64,000 bases of DNA from an uncultured Gammaproteobacteria bacterium (GCA_964610465.1 CAZSWA010000001.1:15023-79022); one strand, 5' to 3'; counted from the first letter of the stretch, positions 35,650 to 53,669 are shown. Made by a program: numbers and translations. The notes: generated by a model not told the origin, from the letters alone.

Positions 35650-35729
35650 GAGTATAATGATAAGACTTGAACTATCGAGTCTTCGCAAAATACAAAGGAT
35701 AGTTCAAGGAATACTATCCATTGTATCAT

Positions 35730-36410: not shown

Positions 36411-37562
36411 ATGCTAAATAAAAAAAAACAGGGCACTATACAAAGTAGGATTTTCTATGGCATTGTGATAGTGTTATTGGTTTTTGTTGGATTTGGAGTC
36501 TTTAAGACCTCAAAATATTTCCCATTCATCTATCAACTTTTTTTTAACAAAACGATTAATCTTAAAGTAACAAAAGATAAGACAGTGAATATTCTTCTTC
36601 TTGGAATTGGAGGAGGTACTCATGATGGGCCTGATTTAACAGATACTATTATTTTTGCCAGCCTTAATCCTGCCAATAATAAAGTTACTCTTGTTTCAAT
36701 TCCGCGAGACTTATGGTTTCCAAGTTTACAAGGGAAAATAAATACAGCCTATACTATGGGTGGATTGGCAAAAGCAAAGGATGCAGTAAGTAGCGTTATT
36801 GGGCAGCCAATTAACTATGGAGTACGTATTGATTTTGGAGGATTTGTTAAAGCAGTAGATCTGGTGAAGGGACTTGATATTATTGTTGATAGAGCCTTTG
36901 ATGATAATGCATATCCAATTGAGGGAAAAGAAGATGATACGTGTGGATATACGGACCAACAGATACAAGATCTTACCTCACAAATTGCAACAGGAAGCGC
37001 CTCAGAAACAGATGCGTTCCCTTGTCGTTATATGCAGTTACATTTTGATAAAGGATTACAGCATATGGATGGTCAGACAGCCTTAGAGTATGTTCGCTCC
37101 CGCCATGCATTGGGTATTGAGGGAACTGATTTTGCGCGGTCTGCAAGACAACAGAAAGTTATTGAAGCATTCAAACAAAAACTTTTTTCAGCAGGTACAA
37201 TTCTCAATCCGACAAAAATAATAGGACTTTATACTATTTTAAAAGATAGTATTGATACGGATATACAACCGAATGAGTATGACAGTTTCATTAAGCTTGC
37301 TCAAAAACTAAAAGGTGTTTCTATCAAATCAACGGTGTTAGATATTGGCGACCCTGATACCAATAGATTAGGTCTTCTGACGAATCCAACAGATACATCT
37401 TTATACGCAGGGGCATGGGTACTTATTCCACGTATAGGGAACGATAACTACTCAGAAATTCATTCATATGTTACCTGTGAAATAGTTCATGACAAGTGTA
37501 TTATAGGTGAACATGGTATTCTTACCCCTACTCCAATACAAACAATTATTAAGAAGAAGTAA
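36411..37562 (+). CDS. LytR-CpsA-Psr (LCP) family cell-wall glycopolymer ligase
   Basis: 383 aa. N-terminal TM, LCP core (NILLLGIGGG...DLTDTIIFASL...VSIPRDLW). Confidence 0.8.
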   Translation: MLNKKKQGTIQSRIFYGIVIVLLVFVGFGVFKTSKYFPFIYQLFFNKTINLKVTKDKTVNILLLGIGGGTHDGPDLTDTIIFASLNPANNKVTLVSIPRDLWFPSLQGKINTAYTMGGLAKAKDAVSSVIGQPINYGVRIDFGGFVKAVDLVKGLDIIVDRAFDDNAYPIEGKEDDTCGYTDQQIQDLTSQIATGSASETDAFPCRYMQLHFDKGLQHMDGQTALEYVRSRHALGIEGTDFARSARQQKVIEAFKQKLFSAGTILNPTKIIGLYTILKDSIDTDIQPNEYDSFIKLAQKLKGVSIKSTVLDIGDPDTNRLGLLTNPTDTSLYAGAWVLIPRIGNDNYSEIHSYVTCEIVHDKCIIGEHGILTPTPIQTIIKKK

Positions 37563-39860
37563 TTAAGGATTTAAAGTTTTATAAATTTTGGTTTGTCCAC
37601 TTTGAAAAACGACTTTTCCTAATTGTTTAAATTTATTCTCATTAAGTGTTGGATATTTCTGATATTCCAAATTCCCTATAAAAACATAGGAGATATGGTA
37701 TTTTTTAATAAGTCGTTTTGTTTCATTAATATCAGAAGAGGTATATAAACTTTCTACTTCTGCAATACGTGGCGCCGGATAATAATAGAGAAAGTTTTTA
37801 TCATTACGCCTTGTATCATTGGCAGGATAATCGTACTCTCCTCTCCATAACCATTCATGTACTGTCCAACCAAGAATCGTTGGAAGCCCGGTATTGGCTG
37901 AGACACGTGCATAATCAGTATATGAATCGCCCTGTGCTTCAAGAATTACAGGCTGACCCTTTATATATTTATTAAGCCAAAGGATTGCTTCATAATCGTT
38001 GGGATAAAGGTTTTTTAAATAATTTATTCCATTTAGTCCATAATAATTTTTTAGGTCTCCATAATAAGAATTTACTGCAAGGAAAGGATAAATAAATACG
38101 AGTAATAATAAAATAAGAGTAATAACAAGAAATATAAGATAGAAAAAGCTTCTCTTAAATGAAAGTAAAAAATTGATAAATTTTTCATGTGGTTCTCGTG
38201 AAAGGAGACGGACAATACTGTATCCACTGCTAATAGAAAGCATAATGAAAGATTGAAATACAAGCTTAAACATAGTATTGGCTCGGTAGTGAGCAGGATA
38301 AATATCTTTTGCATAAATAAACTCTGGAATAATAATAAGAAGTGTGGAAAGTGCAATAAGAATAATAACAAAAATATCAGTTAAGAGGAGCTTCTTGGTC
38401 TTTTTCAAAAAAATGAAGAAAGAAATTACGAAAAAATAAAAAAATCCATACAATATAAGAAGTTGCCACCAAGGAGATTTTTGGCAATGATTCGCTTCAA
38501 ATAAAAATGGTCCGATGTGTCCAATACGAGTTAAGAAGTCTGGTGCACATAATACTCCTATTCCTGATACGAAAGGATTAAAATGGAGTGAAAACGGAAA
38601 AGAAAAAATGATAAAGGCTGTTCCTAAAATAAAAATAGATGAGAGAGATTCAATAAATACAGTAGTACATCTTTGGAATATAGTAAGTTTACTATTTATA
38701 AAAAGCAGCCATTCAAGTACGAGAATAACCAGACTGCAAAGGAGAAAATAAATTATTCCATCCCAGGCATTGGTCATATACATAATGGAAAGAAGAAATG
38801 CAATAAAAAAGAAAAAGAAAGGATGCATAAGAAAACGAATAAAAGAAAGATTCAACAAAAAATTTGTTTTTGAATTACCTATTTTTTTCGACTCAGAAAC
38901 AGAGAAGTTGACAATAACTGAAAATAAGAGAGCAATTATAAGAATCACAAAAGGAATATCCAATACATGCCCATGTAAGTCAGCCACCACCCAAGAATAA
39001 ATAGGAAATTCATGGATTGTGTTATAAATGAATCGAGTTGCGTTTGGATACCAGTAAGAATTTGGGAAAGTAAACGGAGATAAAGTAAGTTTCCATAATG
39101 GAACAGGATTGTCCGTTTTGTAGGGAGTAAAAAATGCATAAAGAATATGAAGATTGCCTGCAAAAGTCACCAAACACGCAGTAAGTAGTCCTGGAACAAA
39201 TAATTTATACTTGGAAATACGTTCTCCCTGTAAGAAATAAAACATGTTTGCTCCAAGAGAAAATGTTTGTGACAGACAAAATGCAAAGATAGTTGCCATC
39301 ATAATATTGAATGAGATGTAGGAGGGGACATTTGAAAGTCGAGTAAGTAACGCAGTAATGAAATGGCCAAAATAGTAATAATTAATTGAATAGGGAGTTA
39401 GCCACATATCACGTGGTGGTAAAGAAGTTCCTCTTAACGCAGAGTTAATAAATCCAAAATCCATATACTTTTCTAACCCGTGAATATCTGCAGCAAACGA
39501 GTGGATATAAGACCAAAAGAGTAAAGCTGCGAAAAATAGCACTTCTTCAAATAGAAAAACTAACCAGTGTTGTTTCATGATGCTGAAATAGTTTTTTTTG
39601 TTAGGTGTGATGAGAAATACAATAACTACACTCGATAGTAGAATAAGAAAAGAAAAAAAAGTAGTAAAGGGAATGATATGGAAAACCCCTAACGCAAATA
39701 CAATATAGGAAAAAATACCAATTCCAACTATTTTTGAAAATGCATATCCTCTATCAAAAAAACGAGGGAACAAGAAAAAGGTAACAGGCAAAAAGCCAAT
39801 TCCTATAAAAAAAAGTAATATCCACCACTGTAGCACAAAGGTTATATCAGATAAAAACAT
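37563..39860 (-). CDS. large polytopic membrane protein with conserved YYY motif (chlor_Arch_YYY/DUF2298-like; GT-C-like glycosyltransferase candidate)
   Basis: 765 aa, at least 16 TM helices, C-terminal soluble region with invariant-looking YYY (NFLYYYPAP). Family assignment is from memory of the motif only. Confidence 0.45.
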   Translation of the reverse strand: MFLSDITFVLQWWILLFFIGIGFLPVTFFLFPRFFDRGYAFSKIVGIGIFSYIVFALGVFHIIPFTTFFSFLILLSSVVIVFLITPNKKNYFSIMKQHWLVFLFEEVLFFAALLFWSYIHSFAADIHGLEKYMDFGFINSALRGTSLPPRDMWLTPYSINYYYFGHFITALLTRLSNVPSYISFNIMMATIFAFCLSQTFSLGANMFYFLQGERISKYKLFVPGLLTACLVTFAGNLHILYAFFTPYKTDNPVPLWKLTLSPFTFPNSYWYPNATRFIYNTIHEFPIYSWVVADLHGHVLDIPFVILIIALLFSVIVNFSVSESKKIGNSKTNFLLNLSFIRFLMHPFFFFFIAFLLSIMYMTNAWDGIIYFLLCSLVILVLEWLLFINSKLTIFQRCTTVFIESLSSIFILGTAFIIFSFPFSLHFNPFVSGIGVLCAPDFLTRIGHIGPFLFEANHCQKSPWWQLLILYGFFYFFVISFFIFLKKTKKLLLTDIFVIILIALSTLLIIIPEFIYAKDIYPAHYRANTMFKLVFQSFIMLSISSGYSIVRLLSREPHEKFINFLLSFKRSFFYLIFLVITLILLLLVFIYPFLAVNSYYGDLKNYYGLNGINYLKNLYPNDYEAILWLNKYIKGQPVILEAQGDSYTDYARVSANTGLPTILGWTVHEWLWRGEYDYPANDTRRNDKNFLYYYPAPRIAEVESLYTSSDINETKRLIKKYHISYVFIGNLEYQKYPTLNENKFKQLGKVVFQSGQTKIYKTLNP

Positions 39861-39871
39861 TATAATAAGAA

Positions 39872-40411
39872 CTATTGTAATATATCAGATAATTGTGATA
39901 TAGGAAAAATATTTCTTGTTAAGTTTCCACCAGTCTGAGAGTCATTTAGCCAAAAGAATTTCGTTTTTTTATTCCTTTTTGCAACATATTTAAGAAGTGA
40001 AAGATCATCATCAATATACAAATCTAAATGTAAATTTTTGATAATAGTATCTTTAAAAATATGAGGTTGTTCATTTTGGAAATTAAAATACATTGCATCA
40101 AAAATTTTATCTAGGTTATATCTTTTTATCAATTTTTGGGTAATCCCTTCTAAAAACTTATATCTACTTGAAATAAGATAAAGTTTATTTCTATCTTTTG
40201 GGATACTATGGAGAAATGTTAAGTTTTCTTTAATTGCAGGTCTTAGTACTGGAAGATGAGTAAATCTACGGAAAACTTGTTCAGGGTAGGAAGGGATACG
40301 ATAAAGAAGAACACCATTGTCCTTTTTCTTGTAGAGTTTATCAACAACTTTTGGAGGGATAAATGGAGGATAGTCAATAAAAACCTTGTCCAGATCAAAA
40401 CCAATATTCAT
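39872..40411 (-). CDS. HAD-superfamily hydrolase-like protein
   Basis: 179 aa. Motif I-like FDLDKV near the N-terminus and DDD near the C-terminus. Confidence 0.4.
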   Translation of the reverse strand: MNIGFDLDKVFIDYPPFIPPKVVDKLYKKKDNGVLLYRIPSYPEQVFRRFTHLPVLRPAIKENLTFLHSIPKDRNKLYLISSRYKFLEGITQKLIKRYNLDKIFDAMYFNFQNEQPHIFKDTIIKNLHLDLYIDDDLSLLKYVAKRNKKTKFFWLNDSQTGGNLTRNIFPISQLSDILQ

Positions 40412-40421
40412 AGGTAAAAAA

Positions 40422-41459
40422 TTATATTTTTGAAACGAGGTTTAAAATCTTAAAATCCCAACCAACTCGATGCGTCTTTCCTATTTTATGTAAAACTTTG
40501 CTTCTATTCATTTTATACCATATATAACTTTCTAAAAAAAGCTCTTGATTTGATTTTTTAGGATGCCATTTAAGAAGCTTTTCTGCTTTTTCTATAGATA
40601 CATACGAATCAACAGGCATTGTTTTATAATGCCATGCTGCAAGAGGAGAAAGATGGAGAAGTTCAAGTATCTGAAGGATAATCTGAGATGGTTTCACAGG
40701 AAGAGAAGTTATTTTAGATTTTGATTTTTGATACTTTATGACATACCCTAAATCTTTTCTCCATGTCTGGAATTCTTTAGCTCCTATATTAAAAATTTCG
40801 CCGCTTACATTTGATTCAACTGCCTTCTCTATTGCATCTGCTAAATCAGTAACAGATAATAATTGGTATTTATTTTTCCCGTTTCCTAACAAGAAAACTC
40901 TTTTATTACTATAAATAGCTTCAAACCACAGCTCAAAAACCCCAAGTCTTTCAGGTCCTAAGAATGTTTTTGGCCTTATGATAATAACAGGAAGACCTTT
41001 CGCTTGATATTCTTGGCATAGTTCTTCTCCTTTTACTTTAGATACGCCATAATATCCAATTGGATCAATTGGAGCTTCTTCTGTTTCAGGTAAATGTTTT
41101 GGTACTCCATATACTGCAGTTGAAGAAATAAAAATGATTTTTTTGATTTTGTGTTTTAGTGCTGCAGCCAATACATTTTTTGTACCATCAATATTGACAC
41201 TAAAGATTGCTTTTTTTGAGAGTTGGATTGGAAGTGCAGCTGCTGCATGTATTACATAATCTTGTCCTTTTATTGCCTCATCGATGACTTTTTTGTTTCT
41301 AATGTCTCCTTTTATCAGTTGAGCTTTTCCAATTAAATCTTTCGCGTCAAGATCGGCGATATCAAAAAGTGTAACTGAGTATCCATCATAGAGAAATTTT
41401 CTTGCTAAATGACATCCTAAGAATCCGCTTCCTCCGGTTATTAAAACTTTTTTTGCCAT
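40422..41459 (-). CDS. NAD-dependent nucleotide-sugar epimerase/dehydratase (extended SDR)
   Basis: 345 aa. Rossmann GGSGFLG, catalytic YxxxK (YGVSKVKGE). Confidence 0.8.
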   Translation of the reverse strand: MAKKVLITGGSGFLGCHLARKFLYDGYSVTLFDIADLDAKDLIGKAQLIKGDIRNKKVIDEAIKGQDYVIHAAAALPIQLSKKAIFSVNIDGTKNVLAAALKHKIKKIIFISSTAVYGVPKHLPETEEAPIDPIGYYGVSKVKGEELCQEYQAKGLPVIIIRPKTFLGPERLGVFELWFEAIYSNKRVFLLGNGKNKYQLLSVTDLADAIEKAVESNVSGEIFNIGAKEFQTWRKDLGYVIKYQKSKSKITSLPVKPSQIILQILELLHLSPLAAWHYKTMPVDSYVSIEKAEKLLKWHPKKSNQELFLESYIWYKMNRSKVLHKIGKTHRVGWDFKILNLVSKI

Positions 41460-41869
41460 AGGTCATATTGTACTACCTTCCCTGTTTGAAAGGCAATAGA
41501 TTGTTTTGAGAAGAAGGATTCTCTCTGTGAATACAGCGAGAAAGAATGAGCATCACCTATTTAATAATAGGTGATGATATGGAAGAATAGACCATTCGTA
41601 GTTGGTAATAGGACGTTGTTGGTTCCCAATTCGGTTGATTTCATACTTTTGCCACATTGGAAACTCCTTATATCCAATTGAAAAACCAAACAGATTCACA
41701 TGTTTCCCATAGAGAACACTATATATCTCATTTCAATTAATGTTTTCATCACCTGTAATATTAAGCGGTATTTGACCAATCCATATGATTCGAAAAACAA
41801 AAGAGATTATTGTAATTATTAAAATGAAAGTTGTATCTAACTAAGAGAGGTAAAAACGTTCATTATCAT

Positions 41870-43588
41870 TTATAGAGAATTTTTTTGGAATATTATTACT
41901 TTTGGATGATCATAGACCGTAAAGGATTCATCTGCTCCCTGGTCGTTTATCGGGATATTAAAAAAAGGAATTATCGGGTAATCAGTAAATTCTGCAATTT
42001 TTTTAAATCCTAACTGTCCAGAAAATAGTTTTTTATAATACTCAGCAGTTTGTGAATAGCAGCGTCCAGAAGGTAAGATAGCACAGTGTGTTAATTTCTG
42101 AAGAGGTACATACAGACGATTGGATGCAATTATTATATAATCAGTTTGTTGTAGTATAGTATTTATTTGATTCCATTTCTCAGGTGTGTCAGGATCATAG
42201 AGAGTTAAAGTAAACGTCGTATATTGCTGTTGTCCAAACATCGGTAATGCATCATCCCAATGTTCAATTGCCAACTTTTTTCCTGGAGGTATTGTATTTA
42301 CAATCCATTGAGATGCAGAAAAACGGGTATTTGGATGATTATAAATACTTAAAAAACTTAATGGCCAAATTAAAAATATAAGAAGTACATATATTCCTAT
42401 TATAACGTTTAACCATAGTGTTCTATTCTGTTTAAGATACAAAATAAGACGGTAACAGAGAAGTCCTGCAAATAAAGAGAAAAGTGGATAAAGTGGAAGC
42501 ATATATCTCATAAATCCTATTGCAAATTTCCCAACGACCGCGAAATAAATTAAGAAAAACACAAAAAGAGTTAATTCTTTTGAAACCAGTTCTTTTTTAT
42601 GAGAGCGTATTAGCAAAAGGAAAAAATAAATAATTCCCAAAAAAGAAAATAATGAAATAAAAGGTCCTTCTCCAAATAAGAAAATATTTTTTAACTCATA
42701 AAAATAGGATATTTTATTGACATATTGGAGGGTATAAGGAAAGATAAATGCGTTATGTGTCATTTGCGATTGTTCAACTGTCTGATTCCAAAAATTACTA
42801 AAATCAATTAAGGCATAGGGTTCAAGTATAAGAAAAGTTAATAGAGTTGAAATAGCGATAAGCAAACCATAGCCTAAAAGATGTCGTAAAAATTTTGGGA
42901 CATGAGGAAACCATACATGAGGACGATGTGGCTCTTTAAAAAACAGCAAAATAAAATCTACAACTAATGTAATTCCGATAGAGCTTACTAATAAAACTGC
43001 ACTTATTTTTGTAGCCAATGCAAAACCGAATGCAAGACCAATAAAAAGAGATTTGATAACTGTTGGTTTTTCATAGAATCGAATAAGAAGATAAAGCGCT
43101 AATACTATAAAACAGGTAAGTAGTGTGTCAACTGCATAAAAATGTGACAACTGAATAGGTAACACACTTATGCTATAGAAGAAAGACGATAACAGTCCAA
43201 CAAATGTAGTAAATATTTTTTTTCCAAGAAGAAAAAGTAAAACGATAGTTACCAAATCACTTATTGCTGAAATAACTCTCCCGACAAGATTAATTCCATC
43301 ATATTGTCCAAACTGTGGATTTATTATACTCGTAATATCTCCTGCAATTTTCAACAAATAGAATGGAAAACTGCCATATGCAAAAAAATGCGGATTCCAA
43401 GGACTACTGGGAGATAAAAACTCAGACATATTATGAGGAAATTGAAGTTTAATAACTGATAACACGATTGCCCTTTCATCAGGATGTAAGTGATACCCGT
43501 TATCCCAATTAATATTATAAAGTCTTACAACTGCTGCCAGAATAAGTATGATAAACAAAAGTGCTTTAATTTTTATCTCGAGCTTCAT
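41870..43588 (-). CDS. GT-C fold membrane glycosyltransferase (PMT/ArnT, GT39-like)
   Basis: 572 aa. About 13 TM, first extracytoplasmic loop with acidic motif (HPDERAI). Paralogous to 43585-45231. Confidence 0.6.
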   Translation of the reverse strand: MKLEIKIKALLFIILILAAVVRLYNINWDNGYHLHPDERAIVLSVIKLQFPHNMSEFLSPSSPWNPHFFAYGSFPFYLLKIAGDITSIINPQFGQYDGINLVGRVISAISDLVTIVLLFLLGKKIFTTFVGLLSSFFYSISVLPIQLSHFYAVDTLLTCFIVLALYLLIRFYEKPTVIKSLFIGLAFGFALATKISAVLLVSSIGITLVVDFILLFFKEPHRPHVWFPHVPKFLRHLLGYGLLIAISTLLTFLILEPYALIDFSNFWNQTVEQSQMTHNAFIFPYTLQYVNKISYFYELKNIFLFGEGPFISLFSFLGIIYFFLLLIRSHKKELVSKELTLFVFFLIYFAVVGKFAIGFMRYMLPLYPLFSLFAGLLCYRLILYLKQNRTLWLNVIIGIYVLLIFLIWPLSFLSIYNHPNTRFSASQWIVNTIPPGKKLAIEHWDDALPMFGQQQYTTFTLTLYDPDTPEKWNQINTILQQTDYIIIASNRLYVPLQKLTHCAILPSGRCYSQTAEYYKKLFSGQLGFKKIAEFTDYPIIPFFNIPINDQGADESFTVYDHPKVIIFQKNSL

Positions 43589-45231
43589 TTTGCAAATATA
43601 TATACTGTAGGCCTATCAAATACATTCGCCGTCTCTTCAAAGGAATATACAGGATTAGTAAGATAAATAATTTTACACCAAATGCTGCAAGGTGTCTCAT
43701 ATATTTTTTTGTACTTTTCTTTTCCATTGAGTAATGCAGTGTAGAACGCATTCCCATTGGGAAATTCAGACGGATCTAAAATTCTTGTTTTCAGTATTCT
43801 TTGACTTGGCAAAATAATATAATTATTTCCTGCTAGTGTTTCACGAAGAGTAATATTGTTATAATCTAAGGAATTATTATCTAGCTCATAGAAATTAAAT
43901 AATGTAATATTAGGAAAATTTGCATTGAATGCAGTAATACCTAAGTCATAGACTTCACTAAGAATTGGTGCGTCTGAGGGAATAAATTTCTTTGCCCATA
44001 TACTCGCCTGTATTCGTGTATCTTTTTCAACAAATGCAGTAATAAAATAAGCAATTGCAAATAATCCGCATACATAACTTAAAATAAGAGCACCAATTGG
44101 AAAGTAATTTATATAATGTTTCAATTGCTTTCTCCCATACTGCAAACTATGTTCTGCTCCAAGCGCAATAATAAGATACATAAACGGAAGTGTCGGAACC
44201 ATGTAGCGTACCCATTTTACAAATAAGAAAGCTTGTGGGAGAAATACTACTAAATAGAATAAATAGACAAAAAGATAAGGTATATTTTTCGATTTAAAAA
44301 GACTGGGAATTAAAACAAGAAAAGATAAGAAAAACAGAACAACTATCACAGGATTCATCAAAAAAGGATATACTCTTGTAAATTGAAAAATAATAGGTAG
44401 GGTATTATAAAATTCACCGGTATAAAATACTTTCATAGTTCCAAGAGCAACTGATGATTCATACTTCATACTATTGAGAAACGATGCATGATCAAGTATT
44501 GTAAAAGGATTGGTGATAAAAAAAACAAAGGTTGATGTTATTGTAAAGAGAAATATTCCTCGGCTTGTCTGAAATAAGCTTGTAAGCAGTTTTTTCTTAT
44601 GCAATTTGTGATAAAGGAAAAATGCTAAAAATATTGCTAAAACTAAAATAGGAAAAAATACAAAACTGGTAACCTTCGTTGCTATCAAGATACCAAAGGT
44701 GATTGAAAGGAGGAAAAGAGAAACACTGTCAGAATTTTGTAAAAACTGGAGAGAGAAATAGAACAATAAAACAGAGAAAAAGGTAAGCCACATTTCAAAA
44801 GTCCCAAAATGGGCAAATTGAATAAATCCAACACTTGTTGCACTCAAAAATGCAGTTATGAGTCCAATCCGTTTGTTTTCTATTTTCTTTCCAATTAAGT
44901 AAAGAAGCGGAATGAGAAGAATTGAGAGAACAGCTGAGAAAATTCTACTGGCGAGGATTGCATTTGCAAAAGAAACTGTTGGAGAAGAAAAAAGCTGCAA
45001 AATTTGACCTAATACAAAAATGCAATAAATTGGGAATGAACCATAGGCAAAAAAATGAGGATTCAGTTGTCTTGGGAATACTATTTCCGTAACTGATGAA
45101 GCGATATTGCGTTCATCAGGATTAAAATAAAAAGGCGCTCCCCAATTAAGGTTATAGATTCTCAAAATTGCTGCACAACTGAAAAGAAATAAAATAAAGA
45201 GTTTTACCTGTATTTTTTTCTCAAAGCGCAT
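43585..45231 (-). CDS. GT-C fold membrane glycosyltransferase (PMT/ArnT, GT39-like), paralogue
   Basis: 548 aa. N-terminal LRIYNLNWGAPFYFNPDERNI...HFFAYGSFP, closely parallel to the downstream paralogue. Stop overlaps next start. Confidence 0.6.
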   Translation of the reverse strand: MRFEKKIQVKLFILFLFSCAAILRIYNLNWGAPFYFNPDERNIASSVTEIVFPRQLNPHFFAYGSFPIYCIFVLGQILQLFSSPTVSFANAILASRIFSAVLSILLIPLLYLIGKKIENKRIGLITAFLSATSVGFIQFAHFGTFEMWLTFFSVLLFYFSLQFLQNSDSVSLFLLSITFGILIATKVTSFVFFPILVLAIFLAFFLYHKLHKKKLLTSLFQTSRGIFLFTITSTFVFFITNPFTILDHASFLNSMKYESSVALGTMKVFYTGEFYNTLPIIFQFTRVYPFLMNPVIVVLFFLSFLVLIPSLFKSKNIPYLFVYLFYLVVFLPQAFLFVKWVRYMVPTLPFMYLIIALGAEHSLQYGRKQLKHYINYFPIGALILSYVCGLFAIAYFITAFVEKDTRIQASIWAKKFIPSDAPILSEVYDLGITAFNANFPNITLFNFYELDNNSLDYNNITLRETLAGNNYIILPSQRILKTRILDPSEFPNGNAFYTALLNGKEKYKKIYETPCSIWCKIIYLTNPVYSFEETANVFDRPTVYIFAK

Positions 45232-45263
45232 GAGTTTAGTTTAGAATGTTTCTTAGGTGTTAA

Positions 45264-46550
45264 TCAATGGGTTTTGTTGATGATTGTTACAATCTTTTCA
45301 CCTAATTCTACTGCGTAATTAGTTCCTCTATCCCAAGGATAGACCTGTTCAATATTTGCTAAATATACATTGGGTAGTGGTGTTGCCATAGGTGGAATCA
45401 TTTTTGAATAGTTTGTAGGGATAATAGGTTGGGCAAAAGGAGCTTTAAAAAGCTCATATCCAATAAGGTATTTTTGGTAATCAGGATTAATTTTTTTAAG
45501 GAATGGGTCAAAAAATCTGAGCTTTTCTTCTTTATTCATGAGAAAACGGGGATTATCAATGGCAAGATAATTTCCAAGGTACACTAAATGTTCATTATTA
45601 TAATGTTTTTTATCCATAAAATTCGTATGCTCAACAATTGCCATCACAGGAGAAGTCGTATCACATACACTGAGCCAATATGTGTTATCAGGAAGAAATG
45701 GTTTTTTAAGCCTCAACACAAGATTTGTTGCTCCAAGACCTTTGAGTTTTGCAAATTTTTGCGTATACGACTGTTGTAATTGCGGAAGTAATTTCATGAA
45801 GAGAAAAGAAGGAAGTGTAAAAATGACTTTATCAAATGTCTCACTCTTCAATTTTCCGTCATTAGTTTTCCATTTAATTGAAACTTTACCATCATCAGTA
45901 ACCTCAAGAATTTCTGTATTAAAATGTATTTTTCCTTCTTGTGTTTCAATAACTGACGAAAGTTTTTGTGCAAATTGTAAAAATCCGCCTGTAGGATACG
46001 CAAGAGAGGACGTGCGTTTCGTAAGTCTTGCCCAAAACCAAGCAAGAGAAATATCATGAGCATATGTTCCAAATTTATTCACAAATTGGGGTTCCCAAAT
46101 CATTTTGTATGTTTTTTCTCCCATTGCTTTGGGTAAAAGCGTACTGGCATTTACCTTTTCAAGAGGTTTCCAAAATGGATTGTATCGTATTGCACCAACC
46201 ACAGCTGCCATACGCAGTCTCTCACCAAGTGATAATTTGGGAAAAAGAAGAACTTCTTTAGGTGAATCAAATTGGTAGATATGTCCTTGAACATATACTG
46301 AAGTTTTAGGATGCCTGATAACTACTGGATATCCTATTTCTTGAGCTAGCTTTAACACATACACATCATTCGTAAACCAATGATGATAATGTTTTTCCAA
46401 ACTCCACTCCCATTCTTTTTCTTTATATCCAATTGCCAATCCTCCAGGCTGAGAGTCTTTTTCAAAAATAGTAACCGTATGTTTTTGTTTTGTGAGTCGA
46501 TATGCTGCTGAAAGACCGGTAAAGCCTGCCCCAATAATTCCTATTTTCAT
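45264..46550 (-). CDS. FAD-dependent oxidoreductase (amine-oxidase / phytoene-desaturase-like Rossmann flavoprotein)
   Basis: 428 aa. N-terminal dinucleotide fold KIGIIGAGFTGLSAAYRL...EKDSQPGGLA. Confidence 0.6.
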   Translation of the reverse strand: MKIGIIGAGFTGLSAAYRLTKQKHTVTIFEKDSQPGGLAIGYKEKEWEWSLEKHYHHWFTNDVYVLKLAQEIGYPVVIRHPKTSVYVQGHIYQFDSPKEVLLFPKLSLGERLRMAAVVGAIRYNPFWKPLEKVNASTLLPKAMGEKTYKMIWEPQFVNKFGTYAHDISLAWFWARLTKRTSSLAYPTGGFLQFAQKLSSVIETQEGKIHFNTEILEVTDDGKVSIKWKTNDGKLKSETFDKVIFTLPSFLFMKLLPQLQQSYTQKFAKLKGLGATNLVLRLKKPFLPDNTYWLSVCDTTSPVMAIVEHTNFMDKKHYNNEHLVYLGNYLAIDNPRFLMNKEEKLRFFDPFLKKINPDYQKYLIGYELFKAPFAQPIIPTNYSKMIPPMATPLPNVYLANIEQVYPWDRGTNYAVELGEKIVTIINKTH

Positions 46551-48025
46551 AATGTAGTTTTCCCTTGTGTTAGGAAGAATAGCATAAGTCCTGTTCCTAT
46601 GGAAAGACCAGTGAAGACAAGTCCTATCACTATAGATGAACTACCGGGGTTTGGTAATGGAGCTTGGGTAATAGTTGGTGAAACGCTTACCGCAAGAAGG
46701 ATGGGAGTCGGAGTTGGTGCAACTGTTGATGTAGGGGTAGGAATTGCTGTCACTGAAATGGTAGGGTTCATGCTAAGTGTTGGGCTTATAGAAGCAACGG
46801 GAGTAGGCGTAGTATTTATAGGTTGGGTTCGAGTTGGGGTTGGAGTAAGAGTTGCGGTAGGCAGTGGTGTTGTGGTTGGAGCAACAGGAGAAACAGAAGG
46901 TTGAGTGAACTGGCTTCCTTGTGCATATACAGTAAAGTTCTGACTTATTGTTTTTAATGCTCCTAATGCATCACGAGTAATTATAGTAATAATATGATTT
47001 CCTGGACTTAAGGGGGTGGTCGGTCGAAATGTCCAATTTCCATTTTTATCAGCAGTGACAGTGGTGCTGATTGGATCTGTCGAATGAATAACAATTTGTA
47101 CGGTTGCATTAGGTATTGCAGTACCTTGAAACATTGGTTGTTGATCTTTAAATTGTTGCTCAGCCTTCGGAGTGATTATCTGAGGGGTTGATGAAGTTTT
47201 CTCATAAGTTGCAGGAAATGCTGAAAAAATAGGACTAATCTCTGCAGATTGAGAAGGAACCACCAATGCTTCTGTACTTATCGAAAAATCATAGTCATTT
47301 GATAAAGTTATTGGAGGAATAGGATTTGCTCCTCCTGAAAGTACTTTTACATTAGAGGTATTGATACCATTGGTAATGGTAAAATTTACTATTGTTTTAG
47401 GAGTAAGCTTGACATAGGAAGATAAATCATTTGTTCGAAGGAGATTTAACGGCAGAATAAAACTTCCATCCTGCCGTAATATGAGAGAAAGTATTTGAGA
47501 GGCGCTCGTTGAGGCATAAACTATCCCTTCACTTGGGATATCTCCGCCAGGTAAAAGTACTTTTCCTACAATTGAAGGGGAATTTGGCGAAGCAACTGTA
47601 AGAGTTTTGCCTGTAGTCATTTCATAAGGTCCAGTTGTATTTGTAAAAGTGGTGCCGTCTGAGATAATTGCAAAATAGTATTTAGTTTGTGGTTTCAGTT
47701 TGGTAAGAGTTATTGAGTGCACATGATGAGAGAGTGGAGTCCCAATTGTCTTATCGTTATCGTCTATCATTACATTTCCATAGGATGAAGTTTCTCCATA
47801 TGCAATTGAAGCAATAGATCTTTCAGGTGTAGTAAAAGATACAGTAAATGCAGTATCAGTACTATTAGTTATTTCTACATTTTTCGGAATATTTCCCCCA
47901 GCTGCTTTGCCTCCAAAAAGTATTTTATTTTCACCTAGCCAGGATATTGTTACTACAGATAGTGATAATACTACTAAACCTAAAACTGTCGGGATGCGTT
48001 TATTCCATATAGAATCTCTCATCAT
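46547..48025 (-). CDS. cell-surface protein: signal anchor, FN3-like and Ig-like domains, long Pro/Thr-rich linker, C-terminal TM anchor
   Basis: 492 aa. FN3-like block (TDTAFTVSFTT...TKYYFAI), Ig-like block (TADKNGNWTFRPT...GNHIITI), about 90-aa PT-rich tract, hydrophobic C-terminus. Stop overlaps downstream oxidoreductase start by 4 nt. Confidence 0.55.
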   Translation of the reverse strand: MMRDSIWNKRIPTVLGLVVLSLSVVTISWLGENKILFGGKAAGGNIPKNVEITNSTDTAFTVSFTTPERSIASIAYGETSSYGNVMIDDNDKTIGTPLSHHVHSITLTKLKPQTKYYFAIISDGTTFTNTTGPYEMTTGKTLTVASPNSPSIVGKVLLPGGDIPSEGIVYASTSASQILSLILRQDGSFILPLNLLRTNDLSSYVKLTPKTIVNFTITNGINTSNVKVLSGGANPIPPITLSNDYDFSISTEALVVPSQSAEISPIFSAFPATYEKTSSTPQIITPKAEQQFKDQQPMFQGTAIPNATVQIVIHSTDPISTTVTADKNGNWTFRPTTPLSPGNHIITIITRDALGALKTISQNFTVYAQGSQFTQPSVSPVAPTTTPLPTATLTPTPTRTQPINTTPTPVASISPTLSMNPTISVTAIPTPTSTVAPTPTPILLAVSVSPTITQAPLPNPGSSSIVIGLVFTGLSIGTGLMLFFLTQGKTTL

Positions 48026-48027
48026 AG

Positions 48028-48327
48028 TTACTGTGTTGGTATATTCGTGGCATCTTCAGCTGGTTGAGATTGTGAACTATCAGATGCTACCAGTGATTGA
48101 GACTGAGAAAGAGGAGTTTGCAAATTATAATCAGGAGTAATGATTTCTCTCTGTTGTAATTTTTGTAGGGTACTCATATCAAAAGTACCATCAATAGGGC
48201 TTATTTGAAAGCTTAAATCATGACTTATGGTTGAAGTCTCAAGCGTGTGGTAAATATTAGACGCTATCCAAAAAGTAACTACTACAAAAGAAAGTATCGA
48301 GATAAAAAGTATATTTTGCTGTTTCAT
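48028..48327 (-). CDS. small N-terminally anchored protein, pilus-operon member (PilP-like position)
   Basis: 99 aa, one TM, Ser/Gln-rich tail. Position between pilO and the surface protein. Confidence 0.35.
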   Translation of the reverse strand: MKQQNILFISILSFVVVTFWIASNIYHTLETSTISHDLSFQISPIDGTFDMSTLQKLQQREIITPDYNLQTPLSQSQSLVASDSSQSQPAEDATNIPTQ

Positions 48328-48334
48328 ACTAGAA

Positions 48335-48952
48335 TTAGTAATAGTATACTCTTCCTGTTACATCCAGAACTAAGTTAGAAGATTTTACATCTTTATTAAA
48401 GCCAATAATTTCAAGTGTCACAAGTCTGTCAAAATTGACTAAGGATGTAGAGAAATTATAAAGGTCATTATAATTTCCACTTGCTTCAACAGTGAATTCG
48501 AAAGAGGAAACATTGTCCAATTTTATCTGAGACTTTGATAAAGGTACTCCTGAAATTTTAATTGATGAAATAGTTACATTTGTATTTTTTGCTATTGCTC
48601 GTATTTCTCCCATTAGTTTTGTTGTCGAAGGGGTATCAGGTAAGGCATTTTGTACTGTTGTTAATTGAGAGCCCAGGACATTATATTGTTCTGACAGTTT
48701 GCCTAAGTTTAAAATTTTATCCCGCAGTTGTTTGTCTACAAGTTTACTATCTGCCAGCTGTCTTTTTAGCTCTACAATAGTAGAAAGAGTTGGATTAATA
48801 GCGAAAATACCAAAAAACGATAATGCTGCAAATGTAAAAATTAACGCAGTATATTTATTAACCTGTTCTCTTTTTACATCAGGTAAGAGTTTCAGATATT
48901 CACGATAATGCTGGGCATTTAGACTTTCAAAATAATTTCTAGGAATTTTCAT
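48335..48952 (-). CDS. pilO: type IV pilus assembly protein PilO-like
   Basis: 205 aa. Cytoplasmic N-terminus, one TM, coiled-coil then periplasmic alpha/beta region. Overlaps pilN. Confidence 0.5.
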   Translation of the reverse strand: MKIPRNYFESLNAQHYREYLKLLPDVKREQVNKYTALIFTFAALSFFGIFAINPTLSTIVELKRQLADSKLVDKQLRDKILNLGKLSEQYNVLGSQLTTVQNALPDTPSTTKLMGEIRAIAKNTNVTISSIKISGVPLSKSQIKLDNVSSFEFTVEASGNYNDLYNFSTSLVNFDRLVTLEIIGFNKDVKSSNLVLDVTGRVYYY

Positions 48953-49568
48953 ATATATGAATAGTACGATAACTGTTTATGTATGCTGGCGGAGTAATCG
49001 AAGGATTCTGTGGAATTGACGGAAGTATTTTATCCAGCTTTAATGAACCTGTAATGCTTACGGAGATAATAGCAAGAGACGTATTATTTTTAATACTATT
49101 TATACTTACATGTGAAACATAAGGATAAGATTTTAAAGAATTAACGAAATTCTTAAGAGAACTTATTGATACTACTTGTGCTTCTATTTGTATCCCGTCA
49201 TTTGCAACAACGAGTTTTTTAAAAGTAATATTGCCACGCCCCATGTCAATTACATCTTTCGCAATCATTGGTAATACATTACTACTCTTATCTATCAGCT
49301 TTATAAATGACAGTTTTTTTTGCAAATTTTTATACGCATCTTCATTGGTTCCTAAATATTTTACAATTACACTGCTTTTATTAATCTTGTCGTGCAAATC
49401 GCTTATTTGCCAGTCAAAACTAAAACGGTAAATAAATGTCCCTAGTGCTACAAACTCCGTAATGATAATAAGCAATCTACCAACTGAGAGGAGCCAATCT
49501 AAAAAGTCATTTATGAGAGAATCGTTTTTTTTGTGAATGAGATTTATGTGATAAGAATCTTTTAACAT
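48939..49568 (-). CDS. pilN: type IV pilus assembly protein PilN-like
   Basis: 209 aa. Conserved N-terminal INLLP-like segment (HINLIHKK), single TM, periplasmic domain. Confidence 0.55.
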   Translation of the reverse strand: MLKDSYHINLIHKKNDSLINDFLDWLLSVGRLLIIITEFVALGTFIYRFSFDWQISDLHDKINKSSVIVKYLGTNEDAYKNLQKKLSFIKLIDKSSNVLPMIAKDVIDMGRGNITFKKLVVANDGIQIEAQVVSISSLKNFVNSLKSYPYVSHVSINSIKNNTSLAIISVSITGSLKLDKILPSIPQNPSITPPAYINSYRTIHIYENS

Positions 49569-49764
49569 ACAAAATAATCCAAATTAAAAAATAAGACTAA
49601 TTTTAGTCTAGGAGGTTTTATATAAAATGTCAAAAATTTTGTACTATATTACTCCATTTTTCAGATAGGTATAGAATTGAACTTGTGAATATGCTATACT
49701 TATTTAAAGTCCCAAAGGTTTTCTTAATGTAAGAAAATTGAAGGGATGATTTTTTTGAAAAACT

Positions 49765-51873: not shown

Positions 51874-51936
51874 ATTCTTCTTCATCTATTTTCTATCGAA
51901 TGTTTTTTGATTCCTTTACGACTAATAAGATTAGAT

Positions 51937-52467: not shown

Positions 52468-52508
52468 ATAACTATCTTACTTTTGCTTTTTTCTACTATA
52501 ATACGTAT

Positions 52509-53616: not shown

Positions 53617-53669
53617 TAACTATCTTACTTCTTCAAAGGTAAGTCTGCAAGTGCACTTATAATTTATCC

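What the first reader, a model, noticed from the sequence alone, without database searches (positions are those of the whole stretch)
36411..49568. Pilus-linked envelope glycosylation locus: pilN/pilO, a Pro/Thr-rich surface protein, FAD oxidoreductase, three GT-C glycosyltransferase-like proteins, an epimerase, HAD and LCP
Seen in sequence: a continuous minus-strand string with overlapping or near-abutting genes runs from pilN (49568) through pilO, a 99-aa anchor protein and a 492-aa surface protein. The surface protein has FN3-like and Ig-like domains followed by an about 90-aa Pro/Thr-rich tract and a C-terminal TM anchor. Then come a Rossmann FAD oxidoreductase (start overlaps the surface-protein stop by 4 nt) and two paralogous 550-570-aa GT-C (PMT/ArnT-like) membrane glycosyltransferases with acidic first-loop motifs (NPDERNI / HPDERAI). 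The 410-nt spacer at 41460-41869 is likely an operon break. Further downstream on the same strand are an SDR nucleotide-sugar epimerase/dehydratase, a HAD-like hydrolase, a 765-aa polytopic protein with an invariant-looking YYY motif, and (convergent) an LCP ligase. Established knowledge: GT39/PMT enzymes O-mannosylate Ser/Thr/Pro-rich linkers using polyprenyl-phosphate sugars. In mycobacteria an FAD oxidase plus SDR reductase (DprE1/DprE2) remodel the polyprenyl-P-sugar donor for GT-C enzymes. Inference: this locus may O-glycosylate the PT-rich pilus-associated surface protein, and possibly the ST-rich linker of the cupredoxin at 2078-2545, with the oxidoreductase/epimerase pair tailoring the lipid-linked sugar donor. 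Coupling of a type IV pilus operon to GT-C O-glycosylation would be a new arrangement for episymbiotic CPR bacteria, whose pili mediate host attachment.
Basis: partly seen in the sequence, partly recalled or inferred. Interest (0 to 1): 0.78.

Follow-up and report, generated by a model that had tools for sequence, protein, structure and literature searches.

The report
Conserved Levybacterial surface-protein and glycosylation operon
A gene string conserved in about 40 Levybacteria (CPR) genomes joins two pilus-platform-like proteins, a Pro/Thr-rich cell-surface protein, a very highly conserved flavoenzyme of unknown function and a variable set of membrane glycosyltransferases, so it probably decorates the cell envelope with sugars, but it is not a pilus operon and the sugar's target is unproven.

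Summary
GT-C1 and GT-C2 are PMT_2 proteins with an invariant loop-1 P-D-E motif. The 765-aa protein is DUF2298/Chlor_Arch_YYY and its model has a GT-C fold. PilO, LCP, the SDR epimerase and the amine-oxidase-type flavoprotein are all supported.

Corrections:
- The 410-nt "spacer" is the wreck of a third GT-C gene.
- The surface protein ends in an LPXTG-like sorting signal, not a plain anchor.
- No pilin, PilM/B/C/T or sortase gene lies in the 64-kb window, and none was found in the ±10 kb held for about 40 relatives.
- The flavoprotein has a phytoene-desaturase/PPO/UGM-type fold, not DprE1's.
- The SDR accompanies the flavoprotein in only 14 of 31 loci.

The order PilN-PilO-p99-surface protein-flavoprotein is kept, mostly with 4-nt overlaps, across Levybacteria despite at least three different left flanks. 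The cassette between the flavoprotein and YYY varies. Outside Levybacteria the flavoprotein keeps company with GT-C, GT2 or flippase-like genes, not with PilN/O.

Best reading: an envelope glycosylation system that uses lipid-linked donors, with the Pro/Thr-rich stalk as the leading but unproven acceptor. TfpW in P. aeruginosa already shows pilus-linked GT-C glycosylation, so this is a new variant of a known kind.

The parts
48939..49568 (-). PilN-like bitopic membrane protein (209 aa), first gene of the string
   Evidence: 25 of 30 orthologs hit Pfam PilN, best E 1e-9; the window copy scores 13.5 bits, below the cutoff. N-terminal I8-N9-L10 motif nearly invariant. One TM segment.
48335..48952 (-). 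PilO family protein (205 aa)
   Evidence: PF04350 at 46 bits, cutoff 22. One TM segment. Overlaps or abuts PilN in most relatives.
48028..48327 (-). p99: small bitopic protein with a conserved juxtamembrane motif (W..YH..TST..PI.P.FD..R) and a P/T/S-rich tail; no known family
   Evidence: Alignment of 28 orthologs. No Pfam or NCBIfam hit. Overlaps the Surf start by 4 nt in 25 of 33 relatives.
46547..48025 (-). Surf492: Sec-type leader, FN3-like domain, Ig-like Big_13 domain, 92-aa Pro/Thr-rich stalk, LPXTG-like signal (LPNPG), hydrophobic helix, basic tail
   Evidence: Pfam. Tract composition, N-termini and motif census. Ortholog C-termini LPPTG/LPKTG/LPVTG/xPxxG followed by TM and K/R tail.
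45264..46550 (-). FADox: cytoplasmic flavoprotein of the amine-oxidase/phytoene-desaturase/PPO/UGM superfamily (NCBIfam PRK07233, function unknown)
43585..45231 (-). GT-C1: PMT_2-type polytopic glycosyltransferase-like protein (548 aa), loop-1 NPDER
   Evidence: PF13231 at 38 bits, cutoff 26. Paralog of GT-C2. Invariant P-D-E. About 10 TM segments.
41870..43588 (-). GT-C2: PMT_2/PMT-type polytopic glycosyltransferase-like protein (572 aa), loop-1 HPDER
   Evidence: PF13231 at 54 bits and PF02366 at 35 bits. The family profile hits yeast Pmt2 (6p25_B) at E 3.5e-7. About 11 TM segments.
41592..41837 (-). Pseudogene remnant of a third GT-C paralog: N-terminal about 50 codons joined in frame to C-terminal about 30 codons, with stop codons
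   Evidence: blastx to the 463-aa GT-C of L002: residues 11-60 at E 5e-8 and residues 418-447 at E 3e-5. Intact third GT-C genes lie after GT-C2 in L002, L004, L007, L025, L029 and L035.
41551..41576 (-). Terminator-like hairpin (11-bp stem, T-rich tail) just after the remnant; a promoter-like site lies at 41467-41496 before the SDR gene
   Evidence: The counts of such sites in the region do not exceed shuffled controls, so this is weak evidence.
40422..41459 (-). Extended-SDR nucleotide-sugar epimerase/dehydratase family protein (345 aa); accessory member of the cassette
   Evidence: PF01370 at 160 bits. Best NCBIfam matches are HpnA-like, LegB-like and GalE-like, all below their cutoffs. Present near FADox in 14 of 31 Levy-type loci.
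39872..40411 (-). HAD-like small protein (179 aa), probable phosphatase, assigned by motifs only
   Evidence: Invariant D6-x-D8, K120, D134-D135 and near-invariant S81 in 20 orthologs. No HMM or PDB sequence hit.
37563..39860 (-). YYY: DUF2298/Chlor_Arch_YYY polytopic protein (765 aa) with a predicted GT-C fold
36411..37562 (+). LCP (LytR-CpsA-Psr) family protein, convergent with and abutting YYY; belongs to the conserved LCP-TPI-UvrD-FemAB backbone block
   Evidence: PF03816 at 115 bits. The block persists in L012, which lacks YYY and GT-C genes.
49605..49633 (-). Promoter-like site (TTGACA-17-TAGACT) in the 196-nt gap between pilN and the divergent EF-G gene
   Evidence: A consensus match only.

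Best explanation
This is a Levybacteria-wide envelope operon with two conserved anchors and a variable middle. Shown: PilN-like, PilO, p99, an exported Pro/Thr-rich LPXTG-like surface protein and a soluble flavoprotein are co-oriented and mostly translationally coupled. Downstream lie 0-4 PMT_2-type GT-C genes (two plus one wreck here), optional SDR, HAD-like and GT4 genes, and a DUF2298 protein with a predicted GT-C fold. Inferred mechanism: a polyprenyl-phosphate sugar is made by a GT2 encoded elsewhere. It is tailored on the cytoplasmic face by the flavoprotein, and by the SDR and HAD-like enzymes where they are present. It is then flipped and used outside the membrane by the PMT-like GT-Cs and the DUF2298 GT-C. 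The most likely acceptors are Ser/Thr residues in the PT-rich stalk of the co-translated surface protein, together with similar tracts such as the p99 tail and the cupredoxin linker. The surface protein is then held at the wall or membrane by its LPXTG-like signal. PilN, PilO and p99 are taken to be a membrane platform that works with a PilM and pilus motor encoded elsewhere; their co-expression with the surface protein suggests that protein is pilus-associated. The variable cassette and the decayed paralog point to diversification of the surface glycan.
For: - Family and fold calls for all parts.
- Topology fits the model: GT-C1/2 have about 10-11 TM segments with P-D-E in the first loop, while FADox, SDR and HAD-like have none.
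- Operon structure: junctions PilN>PilO>p99>Surf>FADox are mostly -4 to +9 nt in about 35-40 genomes.
- Linkage survives context change: the block stays intact with at least three different left flanks, namely EF-G, MurJ/S20 and others.
- A GT-C gene lies within 6 kb of FADox in 29 of 31 Levy-type loci. L027 lacks downstream GT-Cs but has a DUF2079 membrane protein directly upstream of PilN.
- FADox sits next to GT-C arrays, GT2 and GT4 in other Patescibacteria (GT-C 6 of 8, GT2 6 of 8) and next to an LPG_synthase_TM flippase-like gene in Chloroflexota (7 of 9).
- Only Surf492 and the cupredoxin have strong P/T/S tracts among 69 window proteins.
- Sortase is near-ubiquitous in Microgenomates (PMC6744442).
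- Precedents: TfpW pilin glycosylation; from established knowledge, actinobacterial Pmt O-mannosylates Pro/Thr-rich exported proteins.
Against: - No donor synthase (GT2 or UbiA-type), flippase or sortase is in the 64-kb window, so the pathway is incomplete here.
- PMT_2 proteins also include lipid- and glycan-directed enzymes such as ArnT, so a protein acceptor is not implied by the family.
- PT-rich stalks are retained in L012 and L027, which lack the GT-C1/2-type genes nearby.
- The PilN/O link to FADox is confined to one order-level clade and close relatives. General gene order is also conserved there, since LCP-TPI-UvrD-FemAB is equally syntenic.
- The FADox chemistry cannot be read from homology: PDS, PPO, an archaeal unknown and UGM are near-equal structural neighbours, and sequence-profile matches are mostly the Rossmann region.
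- The window's sorting motif LPNPG is non-canonical.
- The YYY loops are modelled with low confidence.
Confidence: 0.5

Rival explanations
1. This is a type IV pilus operon coupled to dedicated O-glycosylation of the pilus-associated PT-rich protein, and the FAD oxidoreductase and the SDR act as a DprE1/DprE2-like two-step epimerase on the polyprenyl-phosphate sugar.
Against: FADox is not DprE1-like in family or fold. The SDR is absent near FADox in 17 of 31 Levy-type loci and in most other lineages, so FADox cannot depend on it in general. No UbiA-type ribosyl-phosphate synthase was found. No pilin, PilM/B/C/T or PilD gene is in the window, and none was detected near the relatives' loci.
Confidence: 0.15
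2. The GT-C enzymes build or decorate a non-protein envelope glycopolymer (a wall-linked polysaccharide, a lipoglycan or a lipid head group). The neighbouring LCP enzyme or others attach it. The PT tract of Surf492 is just an unglycosylated wall-spanning spacer upstream of a sorting signal.
For: The neighbourhood is rich in wall genes: MurJ upstream in 21 relatives, and LCP and FemAB downstream. PMT_2 includes ArnT-type lipid glycosyltransferases, and YYY matches AftA, ArnT and ALG enzymes as well as it matches PMTs. Variable GT-C arrays of up to six genes in other Microgenomates look like polysaccharide loci. PT-rich wall-spanning segments before LPXTG are common in Gram-positive surface proteins (established knowledge).
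Against: The only PDB sequence hit of the GT-C1/2 profile is a protein O-mannosyltransferase, Pmt2. LCP stays with the TPI-UvrD block when the glycosylation genes are missing in L012, so its adjacency may be backbone synteny. The tight translational coupling of Surf492 to FADox is unexplained by this model.
Confidence: 0.3
3. The adjacency of PilN/PilO to the glycosylation genes is historical and has no functional link. PilN/O serve a pilus machine encoded elsewhere. Surf492 and FADox merely share a transcript in one clade.
For: Outside Levybacteria and close relatives, FADox loci lack PilN/O. Type IV pilus components usually co-localise in CPR genomes (PMC6744442), so this pair looks displaced. 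Long-range gene order is conserved in the clade generally.
Against: The five-gene block stays intact with 4-nt overlaps while both flanks change: EF-G, MurJ/S20 or others on the left, and five cassette types on the right. It persists in L052, where FADox is only 47% identical. PilO, p99 and a Surf-like protein lie about 8 kb from FADox in L038.
Confidence: 0.35
4. The flavoprotein does not oxidise a lipid-linked sugar. Either it acts on the isoprenoid carrier itself (saturating or desaturating polyprenyl phosphate, as CrtI/PDS/RetSat-type enzymes act on isoprenoids), or it is a UGM-like pyranose-furanose mutase for a nucleotide sugar.
Against: No GLF (UGM) or carotenoid-enzyme HMM reaches its cutoff. 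No literature was found for a PDS-type polyprenol reductase. The fold ranking spans only about 3 Z units across unrelated chemistries.
Confidence: 0.3

Closest known systems
P. aeruginosa Pa5196/PA7 pilin arabinosylation (TfpW GT-C with PsPA7_6245-6249: phosphatase, DPPR synthase, GtrA-like protein, DprE1, DprE2)
   Same: A GT-C enzyme is genetically linked to a type IV pilus gene and O-glycosylates an exported protein. The donor pathway contains a phosphatase, an FAD enzyme and an SDR working in the cytoplasm (bioRxiv 10.1101/2020.04.19.049825).
   Different: Here the linked pilus genes are PilN/PilO, not a pilin. The candidate acceptor is an LPXTG-like FN3/Ig surface protein. The flavoprotein belongs to a different superfamily (PDS/PPO/UGM-type rather than VAO-type). 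The putative phosphatase is HAD-like. No UbiA-type synthase or GtrA was found. There are three GT-Cs from two families plus a pseudogene.
Actinobacterial and fungal protein O-mannosylation (Ppm1/Dpm1 GT2 with Pmt GT39)
   Same: GT-C1/2 pass Pfam PMT_2, and GT-C2 also passes PMT. The family profile hits yeast Pmt2. There is an acidic D-E pair in loop 1. A Pro/Thr-rich exported protein is encoded alongside.
   Different: No PMT_4TMC or MIR domain hit. The Pmt2 match covers only about 145 of 551 profile positions. No Ppm1-like GT2 is in the window. A conserved flavoprotein partner has no counterpart in PMT pathways.
Mycobacterial DPA pathway and arabinofuranosyltransferases (DprE1/DprE2, AftA-D, Emb)
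   Different: FADox is not homologous to DprE1. The SDR is an extended epimerase-type SDR and is dispensable in many relatives. Nothing points to an arabinan or galactan acceptor.
Haloarchaeal Agl22/Agl23 system and Thr-rich O-glycosylated S-layer glycoprotein stalks
   Same: GT-C2 has a weak match to TIGR03663 (Agl23, a putative hexose-P-dolichol flippase; PMC11182771). By its NCBIfam name and my recollection of the family description, TIGR03662 (YYY) is a Chloroflexi/Archaea family. The surface protein has a Thr-rich stalk before a C-terminal anchor, as the Haloferax S-layer glycoprotein does (recalled, not tested).
   Different: The Agl23 match is 22 bits against a cutoff of 126, so GT-C2 is not a member. 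The organism is bacterial, with peptidoglycan genes (MurJ, FemAB, LCP) nearby.
Type IV pilus PilM-PilN-PilO alignment/platform subcomplex
   Same: PilO passes Pfam. The PilN family passes in most orthologs and keeps an N-terminal INL motif like the PilM-binding peptide.
   Different: No PilM, pilus ATPases, PilC or pilins were found nearby in any of about 40 genomes. The pair is instead operonic with a small TM protein, an LPXTG-like surface protein and a flavoprotein.
Arn pathway (Ugd, ArnA, ArnC, ArnE/F, ArnT)
   Same: A PMT_2-type GT-C uses an undecaprenyl-phosphate sugar made with a UDP-glucose dehydrogenase and an SDR-type enzyme. The SDR here has weak ArnA and UDP-xylose-synthase matches. 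UDP-glucose dehydrogenase flanks FADox in Chloroflexota.
   Different: No ArnB, ArnC or ArnD equivalents are here. Lipid A, the Arn acceptor, is not expected in a cell without an outer membrane; the CPR survey found no PilQ secretin (PMC6744442). The Arn pathway has no flavoprotein.

Membership tests
GT-C superfamily, PMT_2 (PF13231) - GT-C1 and GT-C2 | HMM score above Pfam's gathering cutoff | tested here: met
   GT-C2 54.3 bits and GT-C1 38.4 bits against a cutoff of 26.1.
GT-C superfamily, PMT_2 (PF13231) - GT-C1 and GT-C2 | Conserved acidic residues in the first extracytoplasmic loop of a polytopic N-terminal module | tested here: met
   P36-D37-E38 invariant in 33 sequences. The motif lies between TM1 and TM2. 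About 10-11 hydrophobic segments.
GT-C superfamily, PMT_2 (PF13231) - GT-C1 and GT-C2 | Uses a polyprenyl-phosphate-linked sugar donor outside the membrane | not testable with these tools
   Biochemical property. No donor synthase is encoded in the window.
GT39 protein O-mannosyltransferase (PMT proper) | PMT (PF02366) N-terminal module | tested here: inconclusive
   GT-C2 scores 34.8 bits against a cutoff of 22.7. GT-C1 has no PF02366 hit. The family profile hits Pmt2 at E 3.5e-7 over about 145 positions only.
GT39 protein O-mannosyltransferase (PMT proper) | C-terminal PMT_4TMC module (and a MIR domain in eukaryotic members) | tested here: not met
   No such Pfam hits at E 0.01.
DUF2298 / TIGR03662 Chlor_Arch_YYY - 765-aa protein | HMM above cutoff and the YYYxG motif | tested here: met
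   TIGR03662 472 bits against a cutoff of 300; PF10060 292 bits. N160-Y161-Y162-Y163-x-G165-H166 invariant in 28 sequences.
GT-C fold - 765-aa YYY protein | Structural similarity of the membrane module to solved GT-C enzymes | tested here: met
DprE1 (decaprenylphosphoryl-ribose oxidase) - FADox | VAO-type FAD_binding_4 domain and fold | tested here: not met
   FADox hits Amino_oxidase, NAD_binding_8 and DAO only. Fold neighbours are PDS, PPO, UGM and amine oxidases.
DprE1/DprE2-type pair | Flavoenzyme and SDR reductase occur together as an obligate pair | tested here: not met
   The SDR lies within 6 kb of FADox in 14 of 31 Levy-type, 3 of 8 other Patescibacteria and 1 of 9 Chloroflexota loci.
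NCBIfam PRK07233 (NF005560) flavoprotein family - FADox | HMM above cutoff | tested here: met
   390.8 bits against a cutoff of 252. The family is named only 'hypothetical protein'.
UDP-galactopyranose mutase - FADox | GLF domain HMM or close sequence similarity beyond the Rossmann region | tested here: not met
Type IV pilus machinery | PilN and PilO family membership | tested here: met
   PilO PF04350 at 46 bits. PilN: 25 of 30 orthologs hit PF05137, best E 1e-9, while the window copy is sub-threshold at 13.5 bits.
Type IV pilus machinery | Co-located PilM, PilB/PilT ATPases, PilC, prepilin peptidase and pilins | tested here: not met
   None in the 64-kb window. In the +-10 kb held for the related loci, motif scans found no T2SSE ATPase, and Pfam scans of recurrent neighbours found housekeeping genes only. 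Whole genomes could not be searched.
Sortase substrate (LPXTG cell-wall sorting signal) - Surf492 | LPXTG, hydrophobic helix and basic tail at the C-terminus | tested here: inconclusive
   The window has LPNPG, then a TM helix, then QGK. About 23 of 40 orthologs match a loose [LIV..]Px[TSAP]G pattern and about a quarter are canonical LPxTG. No sortase gene was found nearby.
LCP (LytR-CpsA-Psr) | HMM above cutoff | tested here: met
   PF03816 at 114.7 bits and TIGR00350 at 96 bits.
HAD superfamily - 179-aa protein | HAD HMM match and motifs I-IV | tested here: inconclusive
   No Pfam, NCBIfam or PDB-profile hit. Invariant D6-x-D8, K120 and D134-D135, with near-invariant S81, fit motifs I-IV.

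The most novel reading that the evidence does not exclude
The PRK07233-type flavoprotein is a previously unrecognised core enzyme of lipid-linked glycosylation in Patescibacteria and Chloroflexota. It would modify either the polyprenyl-phosphate sugar or the carrier lipid for PMT_2 and DUF2298 GT-C enzymes, a job done in mycobacteria by the unrelated DprE1. In Levybacteria it would be translationally coupled to its glycoprotein client, an LPXTG-like stalked surface protein that works with PilN/PilO/p99 as a wall-spanning, glycosylated accessory of the type IV pilus in cells that have no secretin.
Probability: 0.22. Interest if true: 0.75.

Novelty: new variant of a known kind. Interest (0 to 1): 0.52.

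Why it matters
CPR bacteria live attached to other cells, yet little is known about their surface chemistry. This locus gives three testable handles:
- **A candidate glycoprotein.** It comes with its probable glycosyltransferases, in an operon conserved across an order-level clade.
- **A structural assignment for DUF2298/Chlor_Arch_YYY.** The library held no functional literature for it. It is placed here in the GT-C superfamily by predicted fold and by a bridging family.
- **An uncharacterised flavoprotein family.** It has more than 6,500 homologs and is 67-78% identical among its closest 120. Its gene neighbours in three lineage groups are lipid-linked-sugar genes.

If the flavoprotein tailors donors or carriers, it would be a non-homologous counterpart of DprE1. 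The variable cassette and the decayed paralog suggest ongoing diversification of the surface glycan, as seen where pilus glycosylation blocks phages (bioRxiv 10.1101/150227, abstract seen).

Tried and rejected
- Single-sequence PDB search with GT-C2 found nothing. A family profile was needed.
- Direct profile comparison of YYY with GT-C1/2 was negative, probability 0.4%. Homology is supported only by fold and by the bridging family c22.
- PDB profile searches for the HAD-like protein and for c22 gave nothing useful.
- The AFDB fold library was unavailable, so no annotated AlphaFold neighbours of FADox could be consulted.
- Literature searches for DUF2298 function, for a PDS-type polyprenol reductase, for CPR with PMT/GT-C, and for Levybacteria glycosylation found nothing relevant.
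- Rfam found no RNA element in the locus at E 0.1. The window has no tRNA genes.
- Promoter and terminator scans are no richer than shuffled controls.
- ORFs directly upstream of PilN in L009, L027 and L002 are not recognisable as PilM: no Pfam family, DUF2079 and IS21 IstB respectively.
- Their outputs list only the closest relatives, which would again be Levybacteria, and would not locate PilM or the donor synthase.
- Taxon labels on several loci ('Gammaproteobacteria', 'Limnocylindrales', 'Saccharimonadales') conflict with their Levybacteria-type content (EF-G about 82-84% identical). I treated them as unreliable.

Full report
**1.
The minus-strand string is exactly as described, and independent gene calls on the source contig give the same genes. 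It runs: PilN-like (48939-49568), PilO (48335-48952), a 99-aa protein (48028-48327), a 492-aa surface protein (46547-48025), a flavoprotein (45264-46550), two 548/572-aa membrane proteins (43585-45231 and 41870-43588), an SDR (40422-41459), a 179-aa protein (39872-40411) and a 765-aa membrane protein (37563-39860). An LCP gene (36411-37562) converges on the last of these. Junctions are tight: 14-nt and 4-nt overlaps and gaps of 2-32 nt, apart from the 410-nt stretch at 41460-41869.

**2. Family assignments.**
- **GT-C1 and GT-C2.** Both pass PMT_2, and GT-C2 also passes PMT. They are full-length paralogs (27% identity, E 2e-50). The NPDER/HPDER motifs contain a P-D-E triplet that is invariant in 33 family members. 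It lies in the first loop after TM1 of a protein with about 10-11 TM segments. A family profile hits one solved protein, yeast Pmt2 (E 3.5e-7).
- **The 765-aa protein.** It is DUF2298/TIGR03662, with the YYY motif invariant. The literature library holds nothing on its function.
- **The flavoprotein.** It passes Amino_oxidase and the NCBIfam model PRK07233, which is named only 'hypothetical protein'.
- **PilO and PilN.** PilO passes Pfam. The window's PilN is sub-threshold, but 25 of 30 orthologs hit Pfam PilN (best E 1e-9). The family keeps a nearly invariant N-terminal I-N-L motif. This resembles the PilM-binding INLLP peptide of PilN, which I recall from the literature and did not test.
- **The 179-aa protein.** It has no HMM or PDB sequence match. 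Its orthologs keep D-x-D, K and D-D invariant and S81 nearly so, at HAD motif positions.

**3. YYY is a GT-C by predicted fold.**

**4. Corrections to the anatomy.**
(a) The 410-nt 'spacer' is a deletion remnant of a third GT-C. blastx matches residues 11-60 (E 5e-8) and 418-447 (E 3e-5) of the 463-aa GT-C found at this position in L002, in one frame with stop codons. Six relatives have an intact third GT-C after GT-C2. A terminator-like hairpin (41551-41576) and a promoter-like site follow it, but such matches are no more frequent than in shuffled sequence.
(b) Surf492 has a Sec-type leader, not a prepilin leader. Its C-terminus is a sortase-style signal. Orthologs show LPPTG, LPKTG, LPVTG or a degenerate P-x-x-G, then a hydrophobic helix and a basic tail; the window copy has LPNPG. 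Sortase is reported as near-ubiquitous in Microgenomates (PMC6744442), but none is encoded nearby.
(c) p99 is a bitopic protein with a conserved juxtamembrane motif and its own P/T/S-rich tail.

**5. It is not a pilus operon.**
The 64-kb window contains no PilM, PilB/T, PilC, PilD, pilin or sortase gene. It also lacks a GT2 or UbiA-type donor synthase and a flippase-like gene. In the ±10 kb held for the syntenic relatives, motif scans found no T2SSE ATPase, and the two weak pilin-motif and two sortase-motif ORF matches include no convincing gene (one lies inside a GT-C2 ortholog). Pfam scans of the recurrent neighbours returned EF-G, MurJ, S20, GroEL and purine-synthesis genes. ORFs directly upstream of PilN in three loci are not recognisable as PilM. 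A published survey says pilus components usually co-localise in CPR genomes, so this PilN/O pair is displaced from the rest of the machinery.

**6. Synteny.**
A genome scan with the flavoprotein found 591 relatives, and the best 80 loci were analysed.
- In about 40 Levybacteria-type loci the order PilN-PilO-p99-Surf-FADox is intact. Junctions are mostly -4 to +9 nt; for example, 16 of 40 Surf/FADox junctions are 4-nt overlaps.
- The block survives changes on both sides. The left flank is EF-G, MurJ/S20 or something else.
- The segment between FADox and YYY comes in at least five forms: GT-C1-GT-C2-(GT-C3)-SDR-HAD; GT-C x3-GT4-HAD; (methyltransferase)-c22; a single GT-C; or nothing.
- A GT-C gene lies within 6 kb of FADox in 29 of 31 adequately flanked Levy-type loci, and the SDR in only 14.
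- L027 lacks downstream GT-Cs but has a DUF2079 membrane protein directly upstream of PilN. From memory, DUF2079 belongs to the GT-C clan.
- The linkage persists in L052, where FADox is only 47% identical, and loosely in a Blackburnbacteria locus (L038).
- It is absent from other Microgenomates and from Chloroflexota.

**7. The flavoprotein.**
Context is more informative. In other Patescibacteria it sits among PMT_2/PTPS_related GT-C arrays (up to six genes), Dpm1-like GT2s and GT4s. In Chloroflexota it sits between an LPG_synthase_TM 'flippase-like' gene and, often, UDP-glucose 6-dehydrogenase. All of these point to lipid-linked sugar metabolism.

**8. Mechanism, with shown and inferred steps.**
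Shown: the families, folds, topology, operon structure and comparative linkage described above.
Inferred: a polyprenyl-phosphate sugar made elsewhere is tailored by FADox, and by the SDR and HAD-like enzymes where present. It is flipped and then used by the PMT-like GT-Cs and YYY outside the membrane.
The leading acceptor is the 92-aa stalk of Surf492 (T 25%, P 23%, S 12%). Surf492 is one of only two window proteins with such a tract, and it is translationally coupled to FADox.
The rival I rank closest is a non-protein glycopolymer acceptor, because PMT_2 and the YYY fold matches include lipid- and glycan-directed enzymes and the neighbourhood is rich in wall genes. A purely historical linkage of PilN/O also remains plausible, since the linkage is clade-restricted.

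**9. Comparison and novelty.**
The closest functional precedent is P. aeruginosa Pa5196. There the GT-C TfpW, encoded next to pilA, O-arabinosylates pilin with a donor made by a phosphatase, a DPPR synthase, DprE1 and DprE2. Pilus-linked GT-C glycosylation is therefore known. What is new here:
- the partners: PilN/PilO/p99 and an LPXTG-like surface protein rather than a pilin;
- a non-homologous, very highly conserved flavoprotein;
- a DUF2298 GT-C;
- the lineage: no paper in the library links CPR to PMT/GT-C enzymes.

I rate it a new variant of a known kind, of moderate interest. The function remains untested.

Noticed in passing
window 4424-7141 (+), with 2078-2545 (-): An FMN_bind-domain secreted protein (4424-4891), an ApbE flavin transferase (4888-5628) and a 508-aa membrane protein with RnfD/NQR2-like and FNR-type NAD-binding domains (5615-7141) form a possible flavinylated membrane redox module. 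It lies near a cupredoxin with an S/T-rich linker. This is unusual equipment for a CPR genome.
   Followed up: no
window 41592-41837 (-): Deletion remnant of a third GT-C paralog inside the '410-nt spacer', followed by a terminator-like hairpin at 41551-41576.
   Followed up: yes
L010, L014, L016, L018, L028, L036, L038, L045 (e.g. L028:11947-13581): A 545-aa polytopic family with no Pfam hit (c22) replaces GT-C1/2 between FADox and YYY. By profile comparison it bridges the PMT_2-type GT-Cs (95%) and DUF2298 (93%).
   Followed up: yes
L038:2248-9972 (Blackburnbacteria): Between the Surf-like gene and FADox lie a 1099-aa subtilase with FG-GAP repeats, a protein with a weak sub-threshold dockerin match, and two cohesin-domain proteins. 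This hints at a cohesin-dockerin-type surface assembly in a CPR genome.
   Followed up: partly
L027:5047-6651: A DUF2079 membrane protein lies directly upstream of PilN, on the same strand, in a genome whose FADox lacks downstream GT-C genes. From memory, DUF2079 belongs to the GT-C clan.
   Followed up: partly
L055-L080 (Chloroflexota loci), e.g. L079:8925-9950 and L055:11406-12710: A recurrent gene order in Chloroflexota: LPG_synthase_TM (UPF0104 flippase-like) - FADox - UDP-glucose 6-dehydrogenase. The flippase-like gene is next to FADox in about 13 loci.
   Followed up: partly
window 51907-54767: Downstream of EF-G lie UPF0047, a PIG-L-family deacetylase (52509-53174), a PEMT/ICMT-like methyltransferase (53155-53616, minus strand) and a GH18 glycoside hydrolase (53670-54767). 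GH18, ICMT-like and PIG-L genes also lie beside EF-G in several relatives (L004, L025 and L035; PIG-L also in L008 and L063).
   Followed up: no
window 33831-35813 (-) and 35721-36407 (+): The longest-ORF start of the UvrD/PcrA helicase overlaps the triose-phosphate isomerase start. Independent gene calls give shorter products, 632 aa and 225 aa, so the true starts are probably internal.
   Followed up: partly
window 14793-15236 (-), 31375-31860 (+), 10199-11059 (-): An orphan Cas4/PD-(D/E)XK nuclease-like gene, a nickel superoxide dismutase and UppP/BacA undecaprenyl-diphosphatase. UppP is relevant to lipid-carrier recycling.
   Followed up: no
L002:310-1020: An IS21-type IstB ATPase gene lies just upstream of PilN in one relative, showing local rearrangement at the left edge of the conserved block.
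   Followed up: no
L002, L005, L009, L015, L027, L029, L035, L036, L063 and others (record titles): Several loci with Levybacteria-type gene content carry titles such as 'uncultured Gammaproteobacteria', 'Limnocylindrales' or 'Saccharimonadales'. Where the EF-G gene is present it is 82-84% identical to the window's (for example L005, L035, L063). These labels look unreliable.
   Followed up: partly
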